The position numbers and the translations under genes are program-made. Positions 50,836 to 56,600 of a stretch of 56,669 nt of DNA are shown here, in pieces. The notes beneath the pieces are model-generated. The model worked only from the letters and a program-made list of their open reading frames with translations. It had not been told where the DNA came from and made no database searches. Positions within the stretch are counted from its first letter, which is position 1. Each line of letters starts with the position of its first letter. The DNA lies in contig JBDHCY010000015.1 of NCBI GenBank assembly GCA_039591795.1, positions 1 to 56,669 of the forward strand. Reading direction: 5' to 3'. Source of the DNA: Gemmatimonadota bacterium. Its GTDB lineage: Bacteria > Gemmatimonadota > Gemmatimonadetes > Gemmatimonadales > GWC2-71-9.

Positions 50836-50895
50836 CAGGCTCCGCGCTTGTCATCGTTGCGTACGCGCAAATGATGCGATTTGCGAGATCCAGCG

Positions 50896-50910
50896 GCAAT
50901 GCGTATGCCA
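50896..50910 (-). promoter_or_regulatory. Sigma54 (-24/-12) promoter of the regulator-HEAT-GT2 operon
   Basis: Minus strand TGGCATACGCATTGC (GG-N10-GC). Predicted +1 is about 50 nt before the ATG at 50835. Confidence 0.8.
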
Positions 50911-51272
50911 CGCTCTAAGGGATAGGGATCTGTGACAACGTCGGTTTCCAGCGACATTTCAAAGCTTTATATGACAACGACTTGACACGCGCCCAGCTCG
51001 CGGCTGGCCCACCCGGTCTTGGGGGACGATCAGAACCGCGGACGCATCCCCGAAACGGTCGTTGCAAGGTGCACATGGTCATTGCGCGAAGCCTTCTCGA
51101 GGACCTGGGTGTGGCTGGCACACTACAACGATGTCCTCCGGCGTCGCTCCGAATGCTGCAACCATCCGACATTCGCGTCGAGAAACTCATCGGTTTGTTG
51201 AGCGTCTGCTGCGCTCTAATGCCCAATCCGTGCTGTTTTCATACCGATCATGGCATTTGGCACGGTCTCTCC

Positions 51273-51288
51273 TGGAATGACAGTTGCA
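51273..51288 (+). promoter_or_regulatory. Sigma54-type promoter for flp copy 1
   Basis: TGGAATGACAGTTGCA (GG-N10-GC). Confidence 0.7.
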
Positions 51289-51457
51289 ACTCGTCGCAGT
51301 CGACCGAGCGAGAACGCTGTGGCTGGCGAGATCGGTCTCGCCAATCGCCAATCGGCGACGGCCTCGTCGGTCGCAGTAACTGGGGAGGGGCGCAACCCCG
51401 AATTGGGTCGGGCGCGACCCGTTCTCACCACCGGCTGGACGGCCAGGAGGCATCATC

Positions 51458-51655
51458 ATGCAGGAGCTGTGGAACCGACTGTGGAGCGACGAGTCAGGCC
51501 AGGGGATGGTCGAGTACGCCCTCATCGTCGCGCTGGTCGCAATTGGCCTAATCGCGGTGTTCCTGTACCTCCGCAATTCCGCGGGACAGGTGCTGGACAC
51601 GGCGGCCGACTCGTTGGCGGCGCAGCCCACGGCGGGCTACGTCCCGACCCCGTAG
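51458..51655 (+). CDS. flp: Flp/Fap type IVc pilin, copy 1
   Basis: AGGAGG RBS and SG|QGMVEYALIVALVAIGLI motif. Confidence 0.95.
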   Translation: MQELWNRLWSDESGQGMVEYALIVALVAIGLIAVFLYLRNSAGQVLDTAADSLAAQPTAGYVPTP

Positions 51656-51673
51656 CTGGGTCGAAGATCGGTC

Positions 51674-51720
51674 GCGCTCTCTAGGGGGGGCTGGCCATCG
51701 CCAGTCTCCCCTGAGTGCGC
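51674..51720 (+). terminator. Strong GC hairpin after flp1 (terminator or stabiliser)
   Basis: GCGC…AGGGG…CTGGC-CATC-GCCAG…CCCCT…GCGC, with no U-tract. Confidence 0.45.
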
Positions 51721-51788
51721 CAGGTCACCGAGACGCTGCGAGGTATGTCGTCGTCTCAAATGGCGCGAGACCGCCGGATGGCGGCGTG

Positions 51789-51804
51789 GGGAACAGGAGT
51801 TGCA
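51789..51804 (+). promoter_or_regulatory. Sigma54-type promoter for flp copy 2
   Basis: GGGAACAGGAGTTGCA (GG-N10-GC), at nearly the same distance from the flp ATG as copy 1. Confidence 0.6.
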
Positions 51805-51978
51805 TTGAGTCCACGATTGGCCGTGTGAGTTGTCGTGGCGGAGGGCGGAATCAGGTTCGCCCAAACCCGATGGCGTGGACTCCGCGGCTTGCAGCGCGAA
51901 GGCAGGTTGGAAAGCCCGAACTGGGTCGGGCGCGCAACCGATCTTCACCAACGGCCTGACGGGCCAGGAGGCATCACC

Positions 51979-52176
51979 ATGCAGGAGTTGTGGAACCGAC
52001 TGTGGAGCGACGAGTCAGGCCAGGGGATGGTCGAGTACGCCCTCATCGTCGCGCTGGTCGCAATTGGCCTAATCGCTGTGTTCCTGTACCTCCGCAATTC
52101 CGCGGGACAGGTGCTGGACACGGCGGCCGACTCGTTGGCGGCGCAGCCCACGGCGGGCTACGTCCCGACCCCGTGA
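51979..52176 (+). CDS. flp: Flp/Fap pilin, copy 2 (protein identical to copy 1)
   Basis: Same 65-aa sequence, with two synonymous differences and a different stop codon. Confidence 0.95.
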   Translation: MQELWNRLWSDESGQGMVEYALIVALVAIGLIAVFLYLRNSAGQVLDTAADSLAAQPTAGYVPTP

Positions 52177-52208
52177 GTCGGGTTTATCGATGCGGAATCG
52201 TCGGGTTT

Positions 52209-52238
52209 CCGGAGGCCGGGCCGTGGTTCGGCCTCCGG
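52209..52238 (+). terminator. 10-bp GC hairpin after flp2
   Basis: CCGGAGGCCG-N10-CGGCCTCCGG, with no U-tract. Confidence 0.45.
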
Positions 52239-52264
52239 CCCGCGACCGTGCACTGGGGGATTGA

Positions 52265-52789
52265 GTGCTCTCGATAGTAGCCAGCGTCGTGCTCGTCGGA
52301 GTGCTCCTCGGAGCGTGTTGGTTCGACGTTCGTGCGCGACGCATCCCCAATGCCCTCACGGTGGTCGGGGTGATTGCTGCGCTCGTCTTGCGCGGCTTTC
52401 TGGGTGCGGGGGCGGTGTTCGAGGGAATCGGGGGAGCTGGACTGGCGCTGCTCGTGGCGCTGCCGCCGTTTGCGCTTGGGATGCTGGGAGGGGGGGACGC
52501 GAAGTTGCTCGCGGCGGTCGGTGGGTTCATGGGCATCGACCATCTCCTTGGAGCACTGCTGGCGATTGCGGTGCTCGGCGGAGGCCTGGCTGTCTTCGAG
52601 GCATTGCGACGCCGCGTGCTGATCAAAGCCGTGGCGAACACATACGGCTTTGCAAAGCAGTGGTTGCTCCTGGGGCGCGCTGGCGGCGCCCCGACGATTG
52701 CTTCGCCGCACGCGCTCACGGTGCCGTACGGTGTGGCGATCGCAGGAGGGGCGCTGACGTGGTGGTTTCTGACGGGAGCGCAGTTATGA
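52265..52789 (+). CDS. cpaA: A24 prepilin peptidase (CpaA/TadV)
   Basis: FD…RRIPN, LGGGDAKL and VPYGVAI. Confidence 0.92.
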   Translation: MLSIVASVVLVGVLLGACWFDVRARRIPNALTVVGVIAALVLRGFLGAGAVFEGIGGAGLALLVALPPFALGMLGGGDAKLLAAVGGFMGIDHLLGALLAIAVLGGGLAVFEALRRRVLIKAVANTYGFAKQWLLLGRAGGAPTIASPHALTVPYGVAIAGGALTWWFLTGAQL

Positions 52790-53202
52790 GGATGTTCAGA
52801 CGTCGGAGTGAAGACAGCGGACAGGCGATGGTCGAGTTCGCGATCGTCCTGCCTCTGCTGCTGATGCTCATGGTAGCAGTGTTCGAGTTCGGCCGGGCAT
52901 GGAACGTCTATCAGGTGCTGACCGACGCGGCGCGGCACGCGGCTCGCAGTGCAACGGTTGCAGACCCCACGGTGACCCAGGATTCCGTCATCCAGATCGC
53001 GCAGAACGCAATGGCGCGTGGCGCAATCAACGTGAGCAAGGCCACCGTGACGGTAACGGGCTTTCGGACTGGGACAGGAACACCGGCGACGGTGACGATT
53101 CAGTTGCCGTATGAGTTCGTTGTCCTCCGGCCCTTCATGGGCTGGACCGCCGCCGAGTCCAATTTCACGCTCACGACGATGTTCACCATGCGGAACGAGT
53201 AG
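52786..53202 (+). CDS. tadE: TadE/TadG-like pseudopilin
   Basis: SG|QAMVEFAIVLPLLL…EFG…AAR.AAR. ATGA overlap with cpaA. Confidence 0.9.
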   Translation: MRMFRRRSEDSGQAMVEFAIVLPLLLMLMVAVFEFGRAWNVYQVLTDAARHAARSATVADPTVTQDSVIQIAQNAMARGAINVSKATVTVTGFRTGTGTPATVTIQLPYEFVVLRPFMGWTAAESNFTLTTMFTMRNE

Positions 53203-53213
53203 AGGGCTGCCCA

Positions 53214-54038
53214 ATGCGACAGCGACGATTGTGGGTGATCATGGTTTTGGCACTGGGCTCGGGCGGCTTCGCCGCCTTCTTCGCCCTACGCTACCTGCGT
53301 CAACAGACGCCACGGTTCATCGCGTCCGAAACGCCGCGTGCGAGCGTCGCGATCGCGGCGCGCGACATGAACCTCGGTACGATTCTCGGGCCGGAGGACG
53401 TGAAGCTCATCGACTGGCCGGAGGAGGCGGTGCCGCCCGGGTACGTGTCTTCGGCCGAGGCGATCGTGGGCCGTGGGTTGATCGCGCCGGTACGGGCCAA
53501 CGAAGTGCTTCTCGAGACGAAGCTCGCCACGAAGGATGCAGGAGGCGGCCTCGCGATCTCGATCCCGGAGGGCATGCGAGCGGTCAGCGTGCGGGTGGAC
53601 GAGGTCATCGGCGTCGCGGGCTTCGTCCTGCCCGCGACCAGGGTCGACGTCATGGTGACGCTTCCGCCCAGGCCGCCTCGCAGCGAGACGATGACGCAGG
53701 TGTTCCTCCAGAACATCCAGGCGCTCGCTGCTGGGCAGCTCGTGCAGCAGGATGCGGAAGGCAAGCCGGTGATTGTCGCAGTGATCACACTCCTCGTGAG
53801 CCCCGAACAGGGCGAGCTCCTCGTCCTCGGCGCGAACGAAGGCAAGATCCAGCTGGCACTTCGCAACACACTGGACTTGGACGATATCGAAACGCGGGGT
53901 GCGCAGGTGAGCGATCTGCTGCGCCGAATCCCGCGCGCGCCGCGCCCCAACAACACGGCACGTGTAGTGGCACGCGGCGATACGTCGACCGTCGTCGAAG
54001 CATACAAGGGCGGCGTCCGAACTCTCATCAAGTTCTAG
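53214..54038 (+). CDS. cpaB: Flp pilus assembly protein CpaB/RcpC
   Basis: SAF domain (IAARDM..G), GMRAVSV, GVAGFVLP..RVDV and LALRN. Confidence 0.95.
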   Translation: MRQRRLWVIMVLALGSGGFAAFFALRYLRQQTPRFIASETPRASVAIAARDMNLGTILGPEDVKLIDWPEEAVPPGYVSSAEAIVGRGLIAPVRANEVLLETKLATKDAGGGLAISIPEGMRAVSVRVDEVIGVAGFVLPATRVDVMVTLPPRPPRSETMTQVFLQNIQALAAGQLVQQDAEGKPVIVAVITLLVSPEQGELLVLGANEGKIQLALRNTLDLDDIETRGAQVSDLLRRIPRAPRPNNTARVVARGDTSTVVEAYKGGVRTLIKF

Positions 54039-54057
54039 GGGAAGGGGATAACCGATC

Positions 54058-55356
54058 ATGCATCGCGTAGCAGTCGAGCGTAACCCGCGCGGGCGCGGCC
54101 GCGCGTGGTGGCTCGCCCTGACGGGGCTCGGGCTCCTCGTGAGTCCTGTGACGGCGCTGGCACAGCGCGTCGTTACCGAGCCACAACAGGTGATCACTGT
54201 GTCGCTCGGCGAGTCCGCGTTGCTCGTCGAAGTGACGGCGATGCAACGGTTCTCGATCGGCGACCCATCGGTGGCGGACGCGGCCGCAGTTTCACCGAAT
54301 GAGCTCCTCATCACGGGGAAGAAACTCGGAACGACGAGCTTGCTCGTGTGGGACGCCAGCGGTGACGTGCGGATGTATTCGATTCAGGTCACCGCCGACG
54401 CACCGGCACTCGAGCGCTATCTCCGAGGCCTGTTCCCCGACGACACTGTGGCCGTCGCAGCAAGCGGCAACACGGTCACGCTGTATGGGCGCGTGCGCTC
54501 GGCCAACGTGGCCCGGCAGATCGTGCAAATCGCGGAAGGGACCGGCGCTACGGTCGTAGACCGCCTCCAGGCCCCACCGGCGAGACAGGTGGCGCTCAAG
54601 GTGCGCTTCGCCGAAGTCAGCCGTAGTGCGTCCAAGGAGATGGCTTCCCAGCTCGCGACGCTCAACCCGCACAAGCTGACAAGCGACGGCGACTGGTTCG
54701 GCGAGACGATCTCCGACGGGTTCATCAATTTTCTCCTGTCCAACGACAACGCCAGTTTCCTGGCGGCGATCAAGGTCCTGCAGTCCAACGGTCAGTTCAA
54801 GACGCTGGCCGAACCGACGCTGCTGGCCCTTCCGGATGAAGAGGCGTCATTCCTCGCGGGCGGCGAGTTCCCGTTCCCGATCGTGCAAGGCGGCACCAAC
54901 AACACGGTGACGATCCAGTTCAAAGAATTCGGCGTGAAGCTGACGTTCACTCCGAACGTGACCGAGAGCGGGAACATCCGGCTCAAGGTGGCGCCCGAGG
55001 TGTCGTCCCTCGACTTCGCCAACGGCCTGTCATTCCAGGGCTTTCAGATTCCGACGCTGCGTACACGGAAGGCGGAAACGTCAGTCGAGTTACGCGAGGG
55101 CCAGCACCTGGCGATCGCCGGCCTCATGGACAACACGCTGACCGACAACGTGACGAAGATTCCGCTCCTCGGTGACATCCCAATCCTGGGCGCGTTCTTC
55201 CGGTCACACGACGCACAACAGAACCGATCGGAACTGCTCATCGTGGTGACTCCCGCGCTCGTGACGGCCACGGCTACGGCGCCGGAGATGCCTACAGGCG
55301 AGCCGGGGACGTGGGATTGGTACGGGGCGCTCAAAGACGGACGCACTCGCAAGTAG
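54058..55356 (+). CDS. cpaC: Tad secretin CpaC/RcpA
   Basis: GKKLGTTSL, QVALKVRFAEV, LAEPTL, FLAGGEFP, FKEFGVKL and IPLLGDIPILG.FF. Confidence 0.95.
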   Translation: MHRVAVERNPRGRGRAWWLALTGLGLLVSPVTALAQRVVTEPQQVITVSLGESALLVEVTAMQRFSIGDPSVADAAAVSPNELLITGKKLGTTSLLVWDASGDVRMYSIQVTADAPALERYLRGLFPDDTVAVAASGNTVTLYGRVRSANVARQIVQIAEGTGATVVDRLQAPPARQVALKVRFAEVSRSASKEMASQLATLNPHKLTSDGDWFGETISDGFINFLLSNDNASFLAAIKVLQSNGQFKTLAEPTLLALPDEEASFLAGGEFPFPIVQGGTNNTVTIQFKEFGVKLTFTPNVTESGNIRLKVAPEVSSLDFANGLSFQGFQIPTLRTRKAETSVELREGQHLAIAGLMDNTLTDNVTKIPLLGDIPILGAFFRSHDAQQNRSELLIVVTPALVTATATAPEMPTGEPGTWDWYGALKDGRTRK

Positions 55357-55385
55357 CCGACGTGGGATTGGAGGAGGGCCGCACG

Positions 55386-56600
55386 ATGAAATGCTGGACG
55401 TCGATGGTACGCAACGAGCGAGGTGCCGCCGCCGTACTGATCGCGGTGTCAGTCGCTGCGATGCTCGGCTTCGCGGCCCTCGCCATCGATCTCGGGATGC
55501 TCTTCAAAGCCCGGGTCGACGCGCAGCGTGCGGCCGACGCGGCGGCCCTGGCCGGAGCCAGCGCATTTCTGGATTTCGACCAGATCACGGCGGTCACGCC
55601 GGCGCGGAATCGCGCAACGGAATATGGTCTACGGAACACGTTCCTCAATGGCCCCATCGACACCGGCGAGATCTACATCAAGGTCATACCCGACAGCTTC
55701 AAAGTCGGTGTGTACGTGTATCGCGACTCGGTTCAGACCTGGTTTGCCAGAATCTTCGGTATCCGGTATGTGCCGATTGGAGCATTCGCCGCCGCCGCCG
55801 CCGTGAGCGCGGGCCAGGCCAAGTGCCTCAAGCCCTGGGCCGTGCCCGACGTCTGGCACGACTACAACAGCGACACGAACAACAACCGCATGTGGGACCC
55901 GGGCGAAGAGTGGGTCTTCGGCGACGACCCCGGGGACGTCTACAAGCCGTTCAGCGGCCCTGGCGGCGCCGCTGACGAGACTGGCTACGGGAGCGAGTGG
56001 CGGAATCCGCCGTACACGCAGCCCGTCGATGACTACGGCCGGCAGATCCAGATCAAGTCGCCCGACCCCAATGACGAGTACTCCGCGGCCCCGGGGATTT
56101 TCTACCCGTGGCGGCTCCCCATCGACCCCGATCAGGAACCGTGCGACAATGGGGGCGGCGGCGGACAGGACGCCGGCGGTGCGGTATACCGGCAGAACAT
56201 CTGTAGCTGCAACAACAGCCCGGTCCAGCTCGGTGTCCCTTACGAGGTGGAGCCAGGCAACATGATCGGGCCGACGGCACAGGGAGTTGACGAGCTCATT
56301 AACGAAGATCCCAACGCCTCCTGGGACGACGCGACGAACCAGATCGTCAATTCGGATCCAAAGTTTGGGGATGCGATGAACAGCCCTCGGGTGATCAAGA
56401 TCGCGCTGATCGACCCGACGCAGATTCAGGGCTCGGGGATGCAGACGATCATGTTCAACAATTTCGCGCTGCTCTTTCTCGAGGAGCAGGCGAACAACCA
56501 GGCTCCTGTAAAGGCGCGTTTTCTGTATTACGCGTCGGGCGAAGGCTCGCCTGGATCGACGACCGGCTCGCTGGTCAAGGTCCTCCAACTCGTCAAGTAG
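55386..56600 (+). CDS. tadG: TadG-like pseudopilin/adhesin with large C-terminal domain
   Basis: ERG|AAAVLIAV…ALAIDLG…AQRAADAAALAGA. Start placed at ATG 55386. Confidence 0.85.
   Translation: MKCWTSMVRNERGAAAVLIAVSVAAMLGFAALAIDLGMLFKARVDAQRAADAAALAGASAFLDFDQITAVTPARNRATEYGLRNTFLNGPIDTGEIYIKVIPDSFKVGVYVYRDSVQTWFARIFGIRYVPIGAFAAAAAVSAGQAKCLKPWAVPDVWHDYNSDTNNNRMWDPGEEWVFGDDPGDVYKPFSGPGGAADETGYGSEWRNPPYTQPVDDYGRQIQIKSPDPNDEYSAAPGIFYPWRLPIDPDQEPCDNGGGGGQDAGGAVYRQNICSCNNSPVQLGVPYEVEPGNMIGPTAQGVDELINEDPNASWDDATNQIVNSDPKFGDAMNSPRVIKIALIDPTQIQGSGMQTIMFNNFALLFLEEQANNQAPVKARFLYYASGEGSPGSTTGSLVKVLQLVK

What the first reader, a model, noticed from the sequence alone, without database searches (positions are those of the whole stretch)
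51299..51978. Conserved structured ~160-nt leaders in front of both flp genes
Seen: both flp copies have a leader of about 160 nt between the sigma54 motif and the ATG, alignable from GTGGC onward. Shared hairpins are GGCGAGA-TCGG-TCTCGCC versus GGGCGGA-ATCAGG-TTCGCCC, CCCGA-A(T/C)TGGG-TCGGG in both, and a GGCY-loop-GGCC stem abutting the AGGAGG RBS in both. Stems are kept while the sequence has diverged. Inference: this may be an undescribed cis-regulatory RNA (riboswitch, protein-binding or stabilising element) controlling pilin translation. It does not match a riboswitch class I recognise.
Basis: partly seen in the sequence, partly recalled or inferred. Interest (0 to 1): 0.62.

Follow-up and report, generated by a model that had tools for sequence, protein, structure and literature searches.

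The report
Structured leaders before two pilin genes
Two neighbouring Tad-pilus subunit (flp) genes of an uncultured Gemmatimonadales bacterium each have a sigma-54-type promoter and a roughly 160-base folded untranslated leader; it is real and undescribed, but looks like an ordinary leader that tunes or stabilises the message rather than a riboswitch.

Summary
flp1 (51458-51655) and flp2 (51979-52176) encode identical Flp pilins. Each is preceded by a GG-N10-GC sigma-54 motif and a leader of 159 or 164 nt. The leaders are 61% identical in the 5' half and 85% near the ribosome-binding site, yet keep the same hairpins: four compensatory and six one-sided changes, and far fewer broken pairs than chance (P about 0.0005).

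Across 56 Gemmatimonadota flp loci, 75% carry the sigma-54 motif (background 11%) with leaders of 72-230 nt. Only the last 35 nt or so are widely conserved: a G-poor C/A-rich linker, a 4-7 bp GGCC-type hairpin touching the Shine-Dalgarno sequence, and the Shine-Dalgarno sequence itself.

Rfam gives no match. There is no conserved core of the riboswitch kind. Shine-Dalgarno accessibility equals that of shuffled leaders. The genome has no CsrA or Hfq. Similar hairpin-plus-Shine-Dalgarno arrangements occur before some unrelated genes. The closest relatives have a shorter (about 90 nt) three-hairpin leader, and the window's leaders do not fit its model.

Best reading (about 45%): a constitutive expression leader for an abundant pilin mRNA, working with strong 3' hairpins. 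A regulated switch is not excluded.

The parts
51273..51288 (+). sigma-54-type -24/-12 motif of flp1 (TGGAAT-N5-TTGCA)
   Evidence: The equivalent motif is present in 42 of 56 Gemmatimonadota flp loci, against 11% of random genome windows. rpoN and at least 12 enhancer-binding ATPases are present in the genome.
51299..51457 (+). leader 1, from the predicted transcription start to the base before the ATG (159 nt)
   Evidence: The transcription start is inferred from the promoter motif only.
51301..51373 (+). 5' domain of leader 1: outer stem 51301-51312 with 51363-51373, enclosing hairpin GGCGAGA-UCGG-UCUCGCC (51325-51342)
   Evidence: Fold. The inner hairpin keeps all 7 pairs in flp2, with 2 compensatory changes and 1 one-sided change.
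51382..51426 (+). extended middle hairpin (hp2), with core CCCGA-AUUGGG-UCGGG at 51397-51412
   Evidence: helices 3 and 4. The core plus its CG(C)GCAACC flank recurs only in L030 among the loci held.
51423..51432 (+). G-poor C/A-rich linker UCUCACCACC
   Evidence: A CCAC-type tract is seen in most homologues. The G fraction is 0.28 against 0.32 in the rest of the leader, p 0.0005.
51433..51444 (+). hp3: GGCU-GGAC-GGCC hairpin touching the Shine-Dalgarno sequence
   Evidence: Model R1 scores it at 33.5 bits, the best in the genome together with its flp2 twin.
51445..51450 (+). Shine-Dalgarno sequence AGGAGG of flp1
51458..51655 (+). flp1, a 65-aa Flp/Fap prepilin
   Evidence: Pfam PF04964, E 5e-9.
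51683..51712 (+). 13-bp G+C-rich hairpin after flp1 with no U tract (3' end-protecting or terminator-like)
   Evidence: Fold. It does not meet the hairpin-plus-U-tract criterion.
51789..51804 (+). sigma-54-type -24/-12 motif of flp2 (GGGAAC-N5-TTGCA)
51815..51978 (+). leader 2 (164 nt)
51819..51889 (+). 5' domain of leader 2: outer stem 51819-51831 with 51877-51889, enclosing hairpin GGGCGGA-AUCAGG-UUCGCCC (51843-51862)
51898..51946 (+). extended hp2 of leader 2, with core CCCGA-ACUGGG-UCGGG at 51915-51930
   Evidence: Model R2 aligns it to the hp2 position of the short-leader family.
51943..51952 (+). C/A-rich linker CUUCACCAAC
51953..51965 (+). hp3 of leader 2: GGCC-UGACG-GGCC, touching the Shine-Dalgarno sequence
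   Evidence: 30.3 bits.
51966..51971 (+). Shine-Dalgarno sequence AGGAGG of flp2
51979..52176 (+). flp2. The protein is identical to flp1; the DNA differs at 2 synonymous sites and in the stop codon.
52209..52238 (+). G+C-rich hairpin after flp2 (CCGGAGGCCGGGCC-GUGG-UUCGGCCUCCGG), upstream of the prepilin peptidase gene
   Evidence: The peptidase gene lies at 52265-52789.

Best explanation
The two stretches are the 5' untranslated leaders of two separately transcribed, sigma-54-dependent flp genes, which encode the major pilin of the Tad pilus.

Each leader is built from self-contained G+C-rich hairpins:
- a large 5' domain that starts 3-5 nt after the predicted transcription start;
- an extended middle hairpin;
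- a short clamp hairpin touching the Shine-Dalgarno sequence.
A G-poor C/A-rich single-stranded linker sits between the middle hairpin and the clamp.

I read this as a constitutive cis-acting expression element. The 5' structures, together with the strong hairpin after each flp, would protect a very short monocistronic mRNA from end-dependent decay. The linker-clamp-Shine-Dalgarno arrangement would fix the geometry of ribosome loading. The result would be pilin made in large excess over the assembly proteins encoded downstream.

Shown here: the structures, their conservation between the two copies, the family-wide promoter motif, and the hairpin next to the ribosome-binding site.

Inferred: the transcription start, any effect on mRNA half-life or translation, and the absence of a trans-acting partner.
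For: Promoter:
- A sigma-54 motif with 8 or more of 11 matches occurs in 42 of 56 flp loci, against 11% of background windows. Nine or more matches occur in 24 of 56, against 1.3%.
- rpoN and enhancer-binding proteins are present.
- No sigma-70-like site lies in the leaders.

Structure shared by the two copies:
- Preserved despite 32% divergence, P about 0.0005, with 4 compensatory pairs.

Structure across homologues:
- The sense strand has an excess of structure over shuffles and over the antisense strand in 42 leaders.
- The window next to the ribosome-binding site is more stable than other leader windows (-6.7 against -4.7 kcal/mol, p 0.003), and 30 of 42 show a clear hairpin.
- The 6-bp hp3 helix is 82.6% paired in 28 sequences, with GC/UA/UG variation at its outer pairs.
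- The same linker-hairpin-Shine-Dalgarno module sits in the 35-45 nt spacers between tandem flp genes of other families.

Gene organisation:
- Both window leaders start with a stem 3-5 nt from the predicted 5' end.
- Each flp is followed by a 13-bp G+C-rich hairpin.

Precedent:
- Sigma-54 control of Tad-type pilin genes is reported in Desulfovibrio vulgaris (PMC3333781).
- From my own knowledge, not checked here: a 5' stem-loop prolongs the life of papA pilin mRNA in E. coli, and of ompA mRNA.
Against: - No transcript data.
- A hairpin at the 5' end is not a general feature of the homologues. Hairpins anchored at the predicted start average -13.9 kcal/mol, against -16.8 at control offsets.
- Shine-Dalgarno accessibility is the same as in shuffled leaders (0.333 against 0.331, p 0.94), so no translational benefit shows in the thermodynamics.
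- Most stems in close relatives never vary, so covariation support is thin.
- The statistical tests across loci ignore shared ancestry.
Confidence: 0.45

Rival explanations
1. A regulated translational switch. The C/A-rich CCACC tract, the clamp hairpin and the purine tract upstream of hp2 would form alternative pairings with the Shine-Dalgarno sequence. A protein, a small RNA or temperature would shift the balance between them.
For: - In flp1 the clamp can be extended to CC-A-CC-GGCU/GGCC-A-GG-A-GG, which covers AGGAGG.
- In L023 and L021 the pyrimidine tract pairs with the whole Shine-Dalgarno sequence in the minimum-free-energy fold.
- In the short-leader relatives, a CAUCC(C)G tract can pair either with an upstream GGAUGG/GGGAG tract (helix 1, 2 compensatory pairs) or with GGGAGGAU.
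Against: - The predicted probability that the Shine-Dalgarno sequence is unpaired does not differ from dinucleotide shuffles in 42 leaders (p 0.94).
- The proposed anti-Shine-Dalgarno tract sits at different positions in different clades.
- No CsrA or Hfq gene was found in the genome, which is 91% complete.
- No ROSE or fourU family match in Rfam.
- 4-5 nt matches between purine and pyrimidine tracts are expected by chance at 66% G+C.
Confidence: 0.2
2. Mostly non-functional sequence. Only the promoter and the ribosome-binding site matter. The hairpins reflect G+C-rich composition and the common descent of two duplicated copies.
For: - Single-sequence z-scores are weak (-1.2 to -1.5).
- Leader length and sequence vary widely between genera, from 72 to 230 nt.
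- The closest relatives by pilin identity (70-88%) have leaders half as long.
- Hairpin-plus-Shine-Dalgarno matches at 28-39 bits also lie before unrelated genes.
Against: - Substitutions between flp1 and flp2 avoid breaking pairs far more than chance allows (P about 0.0005).
- The sense strand is more structured than the antisense strand across 42 leaders.
- hp3 and the linker persist across five families of the class.
- In the window's own genome, only the two flp leaders exceed 30 bits with R1, and the next best hit is 21.9 bits.
Confidence: 0.25
3. A small-molecule riboswitch, for example for c-di-GMP or another second messenger that governs adhesion.
For: - Pilin genes in other phyla are reported to follow c-di-GMP-I riboswitches. 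These are earlier AI notes e1-1079945 and e1-1078535, and are leads only.
- The leader is long enough to hold an aptamer.
Against: - No Rfam family reaches threshold in the window.
- The only riboswitch-like match is below threshold, on the opposite strand and lacks the core.
- No conserved junction or loop nucleotides beyond the Shine-Dalgarno-proximal 35 nt.
- The short-leader family model is confined to two genera.
- The two copies in one genome differ by 39% in the 5' domain.
Confidence: 0.04
4. The palindromes act on DNA, as operators for a repressor or as sites for an enhancer-binding protein downstream of the promoter. They would not act as RNA.
For: GGCC-N4-GGCC and the other stems are inverted repeats in DNA as well. 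The locus is under sigma-54 control, which depends on DNA-bound activators.
Against: - G-U pairs, which would be C-A mismatches on the other strand, are common in the stems: U-G in 7 of 11 and 5 of 11 sequences at two pairs in A3, and UG in 6-7 of 28 in A4.
- The sense strand folds better than the antisense strand.
- The same hairpin lies in intercistronic spacers between tandem flp genes, where no promoter is expected.
Confidence: 0.06

Closest known systems
5' stem-loop stabilisers of abundant surface-protein mRNAs (E. coli papA pilin and ompA 5' UTRs); named from my own knowledge, not retrieved here
   Same: - A long untranslated leader in front of a highly expressed structural protein.
- A stem-loop at or near the 5' end.
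- A second hairpin next to the ribosome-binding site, separated by single-stranded linkers.
- The major pilin is expressed apart from the assembly genes and bounded by a 3' hairpin.
   Different: - No sequence relationship.
- The promoter is sigma-54 type.
- The 5'-terminal hairpin is not general among homologues.
- No half-life data exist. In pap the stable 5' end is made by RNase E processing, which cannot be assessed here.
Short (about 90 nt) three-hairpin flp leader of related Gemmatimonadales genera (model R2, built here)
   Same: - Same gene, and the same promoter type.
- Same order of elements: middle hairpin, CCAC-type linker, GGCC-type clamp, GGAGG.
- R2 aligns hp2 and hp3 of flp2 to its own hp2 and hp3.
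   Different: - The window's leaders are about 70 nt longer.
- They carry a different 5' domain and a different hp2 sequence.
- They score 15.6-16.6 bits, whereas members score 67-95 bits.
Sigma-54-dependent pilin promoters (PilR-type control of pilA; DVU2114 control of Tad-type pilin genes in Desulfovibrio vulgaris, PMC3333781)
   Same: A GG-N10-GC promoter in front of a pilin gene, in a genome that has rpoN and many enhancer-binding proteins.
   Different: No activator gene was identified next to this locus: the window ends inside the tad cluster. Those papers concern transcription and do not describe a structured leader.
c-di-GMP riboswitches upstream of pilin genes (Rfam RF01051, RF01786, RF03169)
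   Same: Position upstream of a pilin or adhesion gene.
   Different: No match at threshold. The one sub-threshold match is antisense and lacks the core.

Membership tests
c-di-GMP-I/II and all other Rfam riboswitch families | Covariance-model score at or above the family's gathering score, on the transcribed strand | tested here: not met
   The whole-window scan finds only RNase P and a tRNA. A permissive scan of 51150-52300 gives c-di-GMP-II-GAG at 22.3 bits against 40, on the minus strand, with 43 core positions replaced by 9.
Riboswitch (generic) | Conserved ligand-binding core (junction and loop nucleotides) retained across distant homologues | tested here: not met
   Only about 35 nt next to the Shine-Dalgarno sequence can be aligned across genera. 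The 97-position model R2 is confined to 2 genera out of 401 genomes.
RNA thermometer or Shine-Dalgarno-sequestering hairpin (ROSE, fourU type) | Shine-Dalgarno sequence held in an imperfect helix, and so less accessible than expected | tested here: not met
   The mean probability that the Shine-Dalgarno sequence is unpaired is 0.333, against 0.331 in shuffles, p 0.94, n = 42. No Rfam ROSE or fourU match. Temperature response is not testable here.
ompA/papA-type 5' stabiliser | Stem-loop beginning within a few nucleotides of the mRNA 5' end | tested here: inconclusive
   The window's leaders have stems from +3 and +5 of the predicted start. Across 42 homologues, hairpins anchored at the 5' end are no stronger than at control offsets. 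The start site is unverified.
ompA/papA-type 5' stabiliser | The leader prolongs mRNA half-life | not testable with these tools
   This needs a rifampicin chase or reporter assays.
Sigma-54-dependent promoter | GG and GC dinucleotides spaced by 10 nt within a TGGCAC-N5-TTGCW-like context, conserved upstream of orthologues, with rpoN and activators present | tested here: met
   Each motif has 2 mismatches to the consensus. Enrichment is 75% of loci against 11% of background. rpoN lies on contig C83. There are 12 or more Sigma54_activat genes. Dependence on RpoN itself is not testable here.
   The window's leaders score 16.6 and 15.6 bits with filters off, and gave no hit in the genome search.
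Intrinsic terminator or transcription attenuator | G+C-rich hairpin followed by a U tract inside the leader | tested here: not met
   No terminator-like site in 50850-52300.
CsrA- or Hfq-controlled leader | The binding protein is encoded in the genome | tested here: not met
   PF02599 and PF17209 find nothing in the genome, while the controls respond. The genome is 91% complete, so absence is probable, not certain.

The most novel reading that the evidence does not exclude
The linker-clamp-Shine-Dalgarno module and the domains upstream of it form a new, lineage-specific regulatory RNA. It would couple translation of the Tad pilin to a signal sensed by an unknown protein, small RNA or ligand. 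It would have spread with sigma-54-driven flp genes through the class Gemmatimonadetes, and the window's long leaders would be an elaborated form of it.
Probability: 0.12. Interest if true: 0.6.

Novelty: new member of a known kind. Interest (0 to 1): 0.3.

Why it matters
Gemmatimonadota are abundant in soil and sediment, but almost nothing is known about how they regulate genes.

This work shows that their Tad pilin genes are, as a rule, sigma-54 dependent. It also shows that these genes carry long structured leaders with a conserved hairpin next to the ribosome-binding site. That gives a concrete handle on how adhesion pili are controlled in the phylum, and a defined RNA element to test.

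If the leader only stabilises or tunes the message, it is one more example of a familiar solution for making a structural subunit in excess. The finding would deserve wider attention only if it turned out to be a regulated switch.

Tried and rejected
- **Rfam.** Scanned at gathering and at permissive thresholds. Nothing relevant was found, and the antisense c-di-GMP-II-GAG match was rejected.
- **Closer relatives with the long leader.** Scans of genome contigs and metagenome contigs returned only short-leader relatives. No other species of the same genus is held.
- **5'-terminal hairpin as a general rule.** Not supported.
- **Shine-Dalgarno sequestration, or Shine-Dalgarno insulation.** Neither is supported.
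- **CsrA or Hfq control.** The genes are absent.
- **Attenuator or terminator in the leader, or sigma-70 promoters near the ribosome-binding site.** None by consensus scans.
- **Coding potential.** The indels between the leaders are 1-2 nt. The in-frame GTG upstream of flp2 (51835) has no counterpart at flp1.
- **Model R1 (linker + hp3 + Shine-Dalgarno sequence + ATG) as a flp-specific marker.** It is specific in the window's own genome. Across the family and class it also hits a few unrelated gene starts at 28-39 bits.
- **Model R2 as a family that might include the window.** It does not.
- **Literature.** Searches found no described flp leader RNA.

Full report
**What is there.** The window is contig C15 of a Gemmatimonadales metagenome-assembled genome: 554 contigs, 91% complete, 66% G+C. 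Positions 51458-56600 hold the start of a tad (Flp pilus) cluster:
- two 65-aa Flp/Fap prepilin genes (51458-51655 and 51979-52176, PF04964);
- a prepilin peptidase, a TadE-like protein, CpaB/RcpC, a CpaC secretin and a TadG-like protein.

Upstream and divergent lies an Hpt-REC-REC gene, followed by HEAT-repeat, glycosyltransferase and TPR genes.

The two flp coding sequences differ at two synonymous sites and in the stop codon. The upstream regions are 85% identical over the last 68 aligned columns and 61% over the first 80.

**Checking the observation.**
- The GG-N10-GC motifs are at 51273-51288 and 51789-51804.
- With GC at -13/-12, the predicted starts are about 51299 and 51815, and the leaders are 159 and 164 nt.
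- The two leaders align with 51 differences in 161 columns. The indels are 1-2 nt, so the region is not coding.

Each leader folds on its own into the same architecture:
- an extended middle hairpin, whose tip is CCCGA-AYUGGG-UCGGG;
- a C/A-rich linker;
- a 4-5 bp GGCY/GGCC hairpin directly before AGGAGG.

When the flp2 fold is laid on flp1, 27 pairs are unchanged, 6 change on one side, 4 change on both sides and 8 break. Placing the observed substitutions at random breaks 16.3 on average (P about 0.0005). The pair-counting tool gives 91.6% of cells paired, against at most 53% after sliding partners.

Folding energy for a single sequence is only modestly better than for shuffles (z -1.2 to -2.8). 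So the claim 'stems are kept while the sequence diverged' is right, and beyond chance. It rests, however, on two paralogues.

**Relatives.** I collected flp loci from four sources: 301 genomes of the same family, 301 of the phylum, the species-representative genome set, and JGI metagenomes. In total 56 upstream regions were analysed.
- A sigma-54 motif matching 8 or more of 11 consensus positions lies within 260 nt upstream in 42 of them. Random 220-nt windows of the window's genome reach this in 11% of cases. Nine or more matches occur in 24 of 56, against 1.3%.
- The genome has rpoN and at least a dozen enhancer-binding ATPases.
- Sigma-54 control of Tad-type pilin genes has a precedent in Desulfovibrio vulgaris (PMC3333781).
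- Predicted leaders range from 72 to 230 nt.

**What is conserved.** Across genera, only the last 35 nt or so before the start codon can be aligned. This stretch holds three things:
- a G-poor C/A-rich tract, often containing CCAC (G fraction 0.28 against 0.32 in the rest of the leader, p 0.0005);
- a 4-7 bp hairpin, usually (Y)GGCC-N3-6-GGCC(R), that ends at or one to two bases into the Shine-Dalgarno sequence (clear in 30 of 42 loci; this window is more stable than other leader windows, -6.7 against -4.7 kcal/mol, p 0.003);
- the Shine-Dalgarno sequence.

Variant stems exist: UGGC/GCCA, GGCA/UGCC, GCCG/CGGC and GCCGG/CCGGC. Some loops are GNRA tetraloops. In the 28-sequence alignment, however, the four inner pairs are almost invariant. 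Covariation is limited to the outer pairs (GC 10, UG 6, UA 4), and 7-8 of 500 shuffles reach the observed score.

The same linker-hairpin-Shine-Dalgarno module also sits in the 35-45 nt spacers between tandem flp genes in other families of the class (L108, L109, L110, L113). It therefore travels with the flp ribosome-binding site rather than with the promoter.

**The closest relatives have a different leader.** Loci whose pilins are 70-88% identical to the window's have leaders of only 85-95 nt (L042, L017, L018, L020, L022, L065-L070). These leaders have three hairpins. That structure is 92% paired, against at most 47% when slid, with two compensatory pairs in the first helix.
- A covariance model of it (R2) finds members only in two genera among 401 family genomes, at 67-95 bits.
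- R2 scores the window's leaders at 16.6 and 15.6 bits. It aligns their middle and clamp hairpins to its own.

The window's leaders are therefore an expanded, diverged relative of that element and not a member of it. No closer relative with the long form was found.

**Is the structure RNA or DNA, and is it specific?**
- G-U pairs are frequent in the stems.
- The sense strand of 42 leaders is more structured than shuffles (mean z -0.88, p 3e-5) and more than the antisense strand (-0.36, p 0.001).

Both points favour RNA on the sense strand.

A model of the linker-clamp-Shine-Dalgarno-ATG module (R1) scores only the two flp leaders above 30 bits in the window's own genome, and the next hit is 21.9 bits. 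A plain pattern search gives the same picture. Across the family and class, nearly all hits of 33 bits or more are flp leaders. The exceptions are a membrane-protein gene at 39 bits and a lipoprotein gene at 34 bits. Several unrelated gene starts score 28-31 bits. The clamp is thus characteristic of flp but not exclusive to it.

**Mechanism tests.**
- Riboswitch: no Rfam family reaches threshold. The only riboswitch-like match is antisense and lacks the core. There is no conserved core across genera.
- Shine-Dalgarno sequestration, or the opposite (insulation): the predicted probability that the Shine-Dalgarno sequence is unpaired is 0.333, against 0.331 in dinucleotide shuffles of the upstream leader (p 0.94).
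- 5'-terminal protective hairpin: present in both window leaders, but not enriched across homologues.
- Attenuator: no hairpin with a U tract. No sigma-70-like promoter lies closer to the gene.
- CsrA or Hfq: no gene in the genome.
- 3' ends: each flp is followed by a 13-bp G+C-rich hairpin without a U tract (51683-51712, 52209-52238). Each pilin gene therefore looks like a short unit bounded by structure on both sides.

**Conclusion.** The leaders are real, share their structure and are undescribed. The evidence fits a constitutive expression element for an abundant pilin message better than a sensor. This is my best explanation at about 45%. About 20% goes to a regulated translational switch, 25% to largely non-functional structure, and small shares to a riboswitch or a DNA operator. 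All functional statements are inferences.

The cross-locus statistics treat loci as independent and so overstate significance. The model E-values are rough.

They cover the divergent sigma-54 promoters in this intergenic region, and c-di-GMP riboswitches or other leaders before flp genes in other phyla.

Noticed in passing
window 51458-51655 versus 51979-52176, and the leaders upstream: The two flp coding sequences are 196/198 identical (2 synonymous sites plus the stop codon). Identity drops to 85% in the proximal leader and 61% in the distal leader. This suggests gene conversion or concerted evolution confined to the coding sequence and the ribosome-binding-site-proximal leader.
   Followed up: partly
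window 51683-51712 and 52209-52238: There is a very stable 13-bp G+C-rich hairpin after each flp gene, without a U tract. These may be U-less terminators or 3' end-protecting structures. They would give a pilin-versus-machinery expression step like the termination cascade described for the Aggregatibacter tad locus (recalled from my own knowledge, not checked).
   Followed up: partly
L036 1740-1842 (G162:C142), and L035: The flp leader of another Gemmatimonadales genus contains a 7-nt tandem array (CAGCTCA on the flp strand, 14.7 copies, 91% matches) between the sigma-54 motif and the pilin gene. A related genome has a degenerate version. Slipped-strand changes in leader length are conceivable.
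   Followed up: partly
L030 about 1462-1500 (G286:C20): The hp2 tip and its flank (CCCCUACUGGGUCGGGGCGGCAACC) closely match hp2 of the window's flp2. The pilin is only 52% identical, and here the motif lies directly before the Shine-Dalgarno sequence with no clamp hairpin. It was found in no other locus held.
   Followed up: partly
L125 (G261:C141:26150-26200), L166 (G488:C3:1076326-1076376): Non-flp genes (a small membrane protein and a lipoprotein-like protein) carry a C/A tract, a GGCC hairpin and a Shine-Dalgarno sequence that score 39 and 34 bits with the flp-derived model R1. trpB-like and dcd-like genes score 28-30 bits.
   Followed up: partly
Its roughly 50-nt leader has a CGCAAAU/AUUUGCG hairpin near the predicted start.
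   Followed up: partly
window 51835-52176: An in-frame GTG 144 nt upstream of the flp2 ATG would give a 113-aa extended product. flp1 has no equivalent open frame, so it is probably spurious.
   Followed up: partly
whole genome G000: No CsrA (PF02599) and no Hfq (PF17209) homologue was detected in this 91%-complete genome. It does have one rpoN and 12 or more sigma-54 activator genes.
   Followed up: yes
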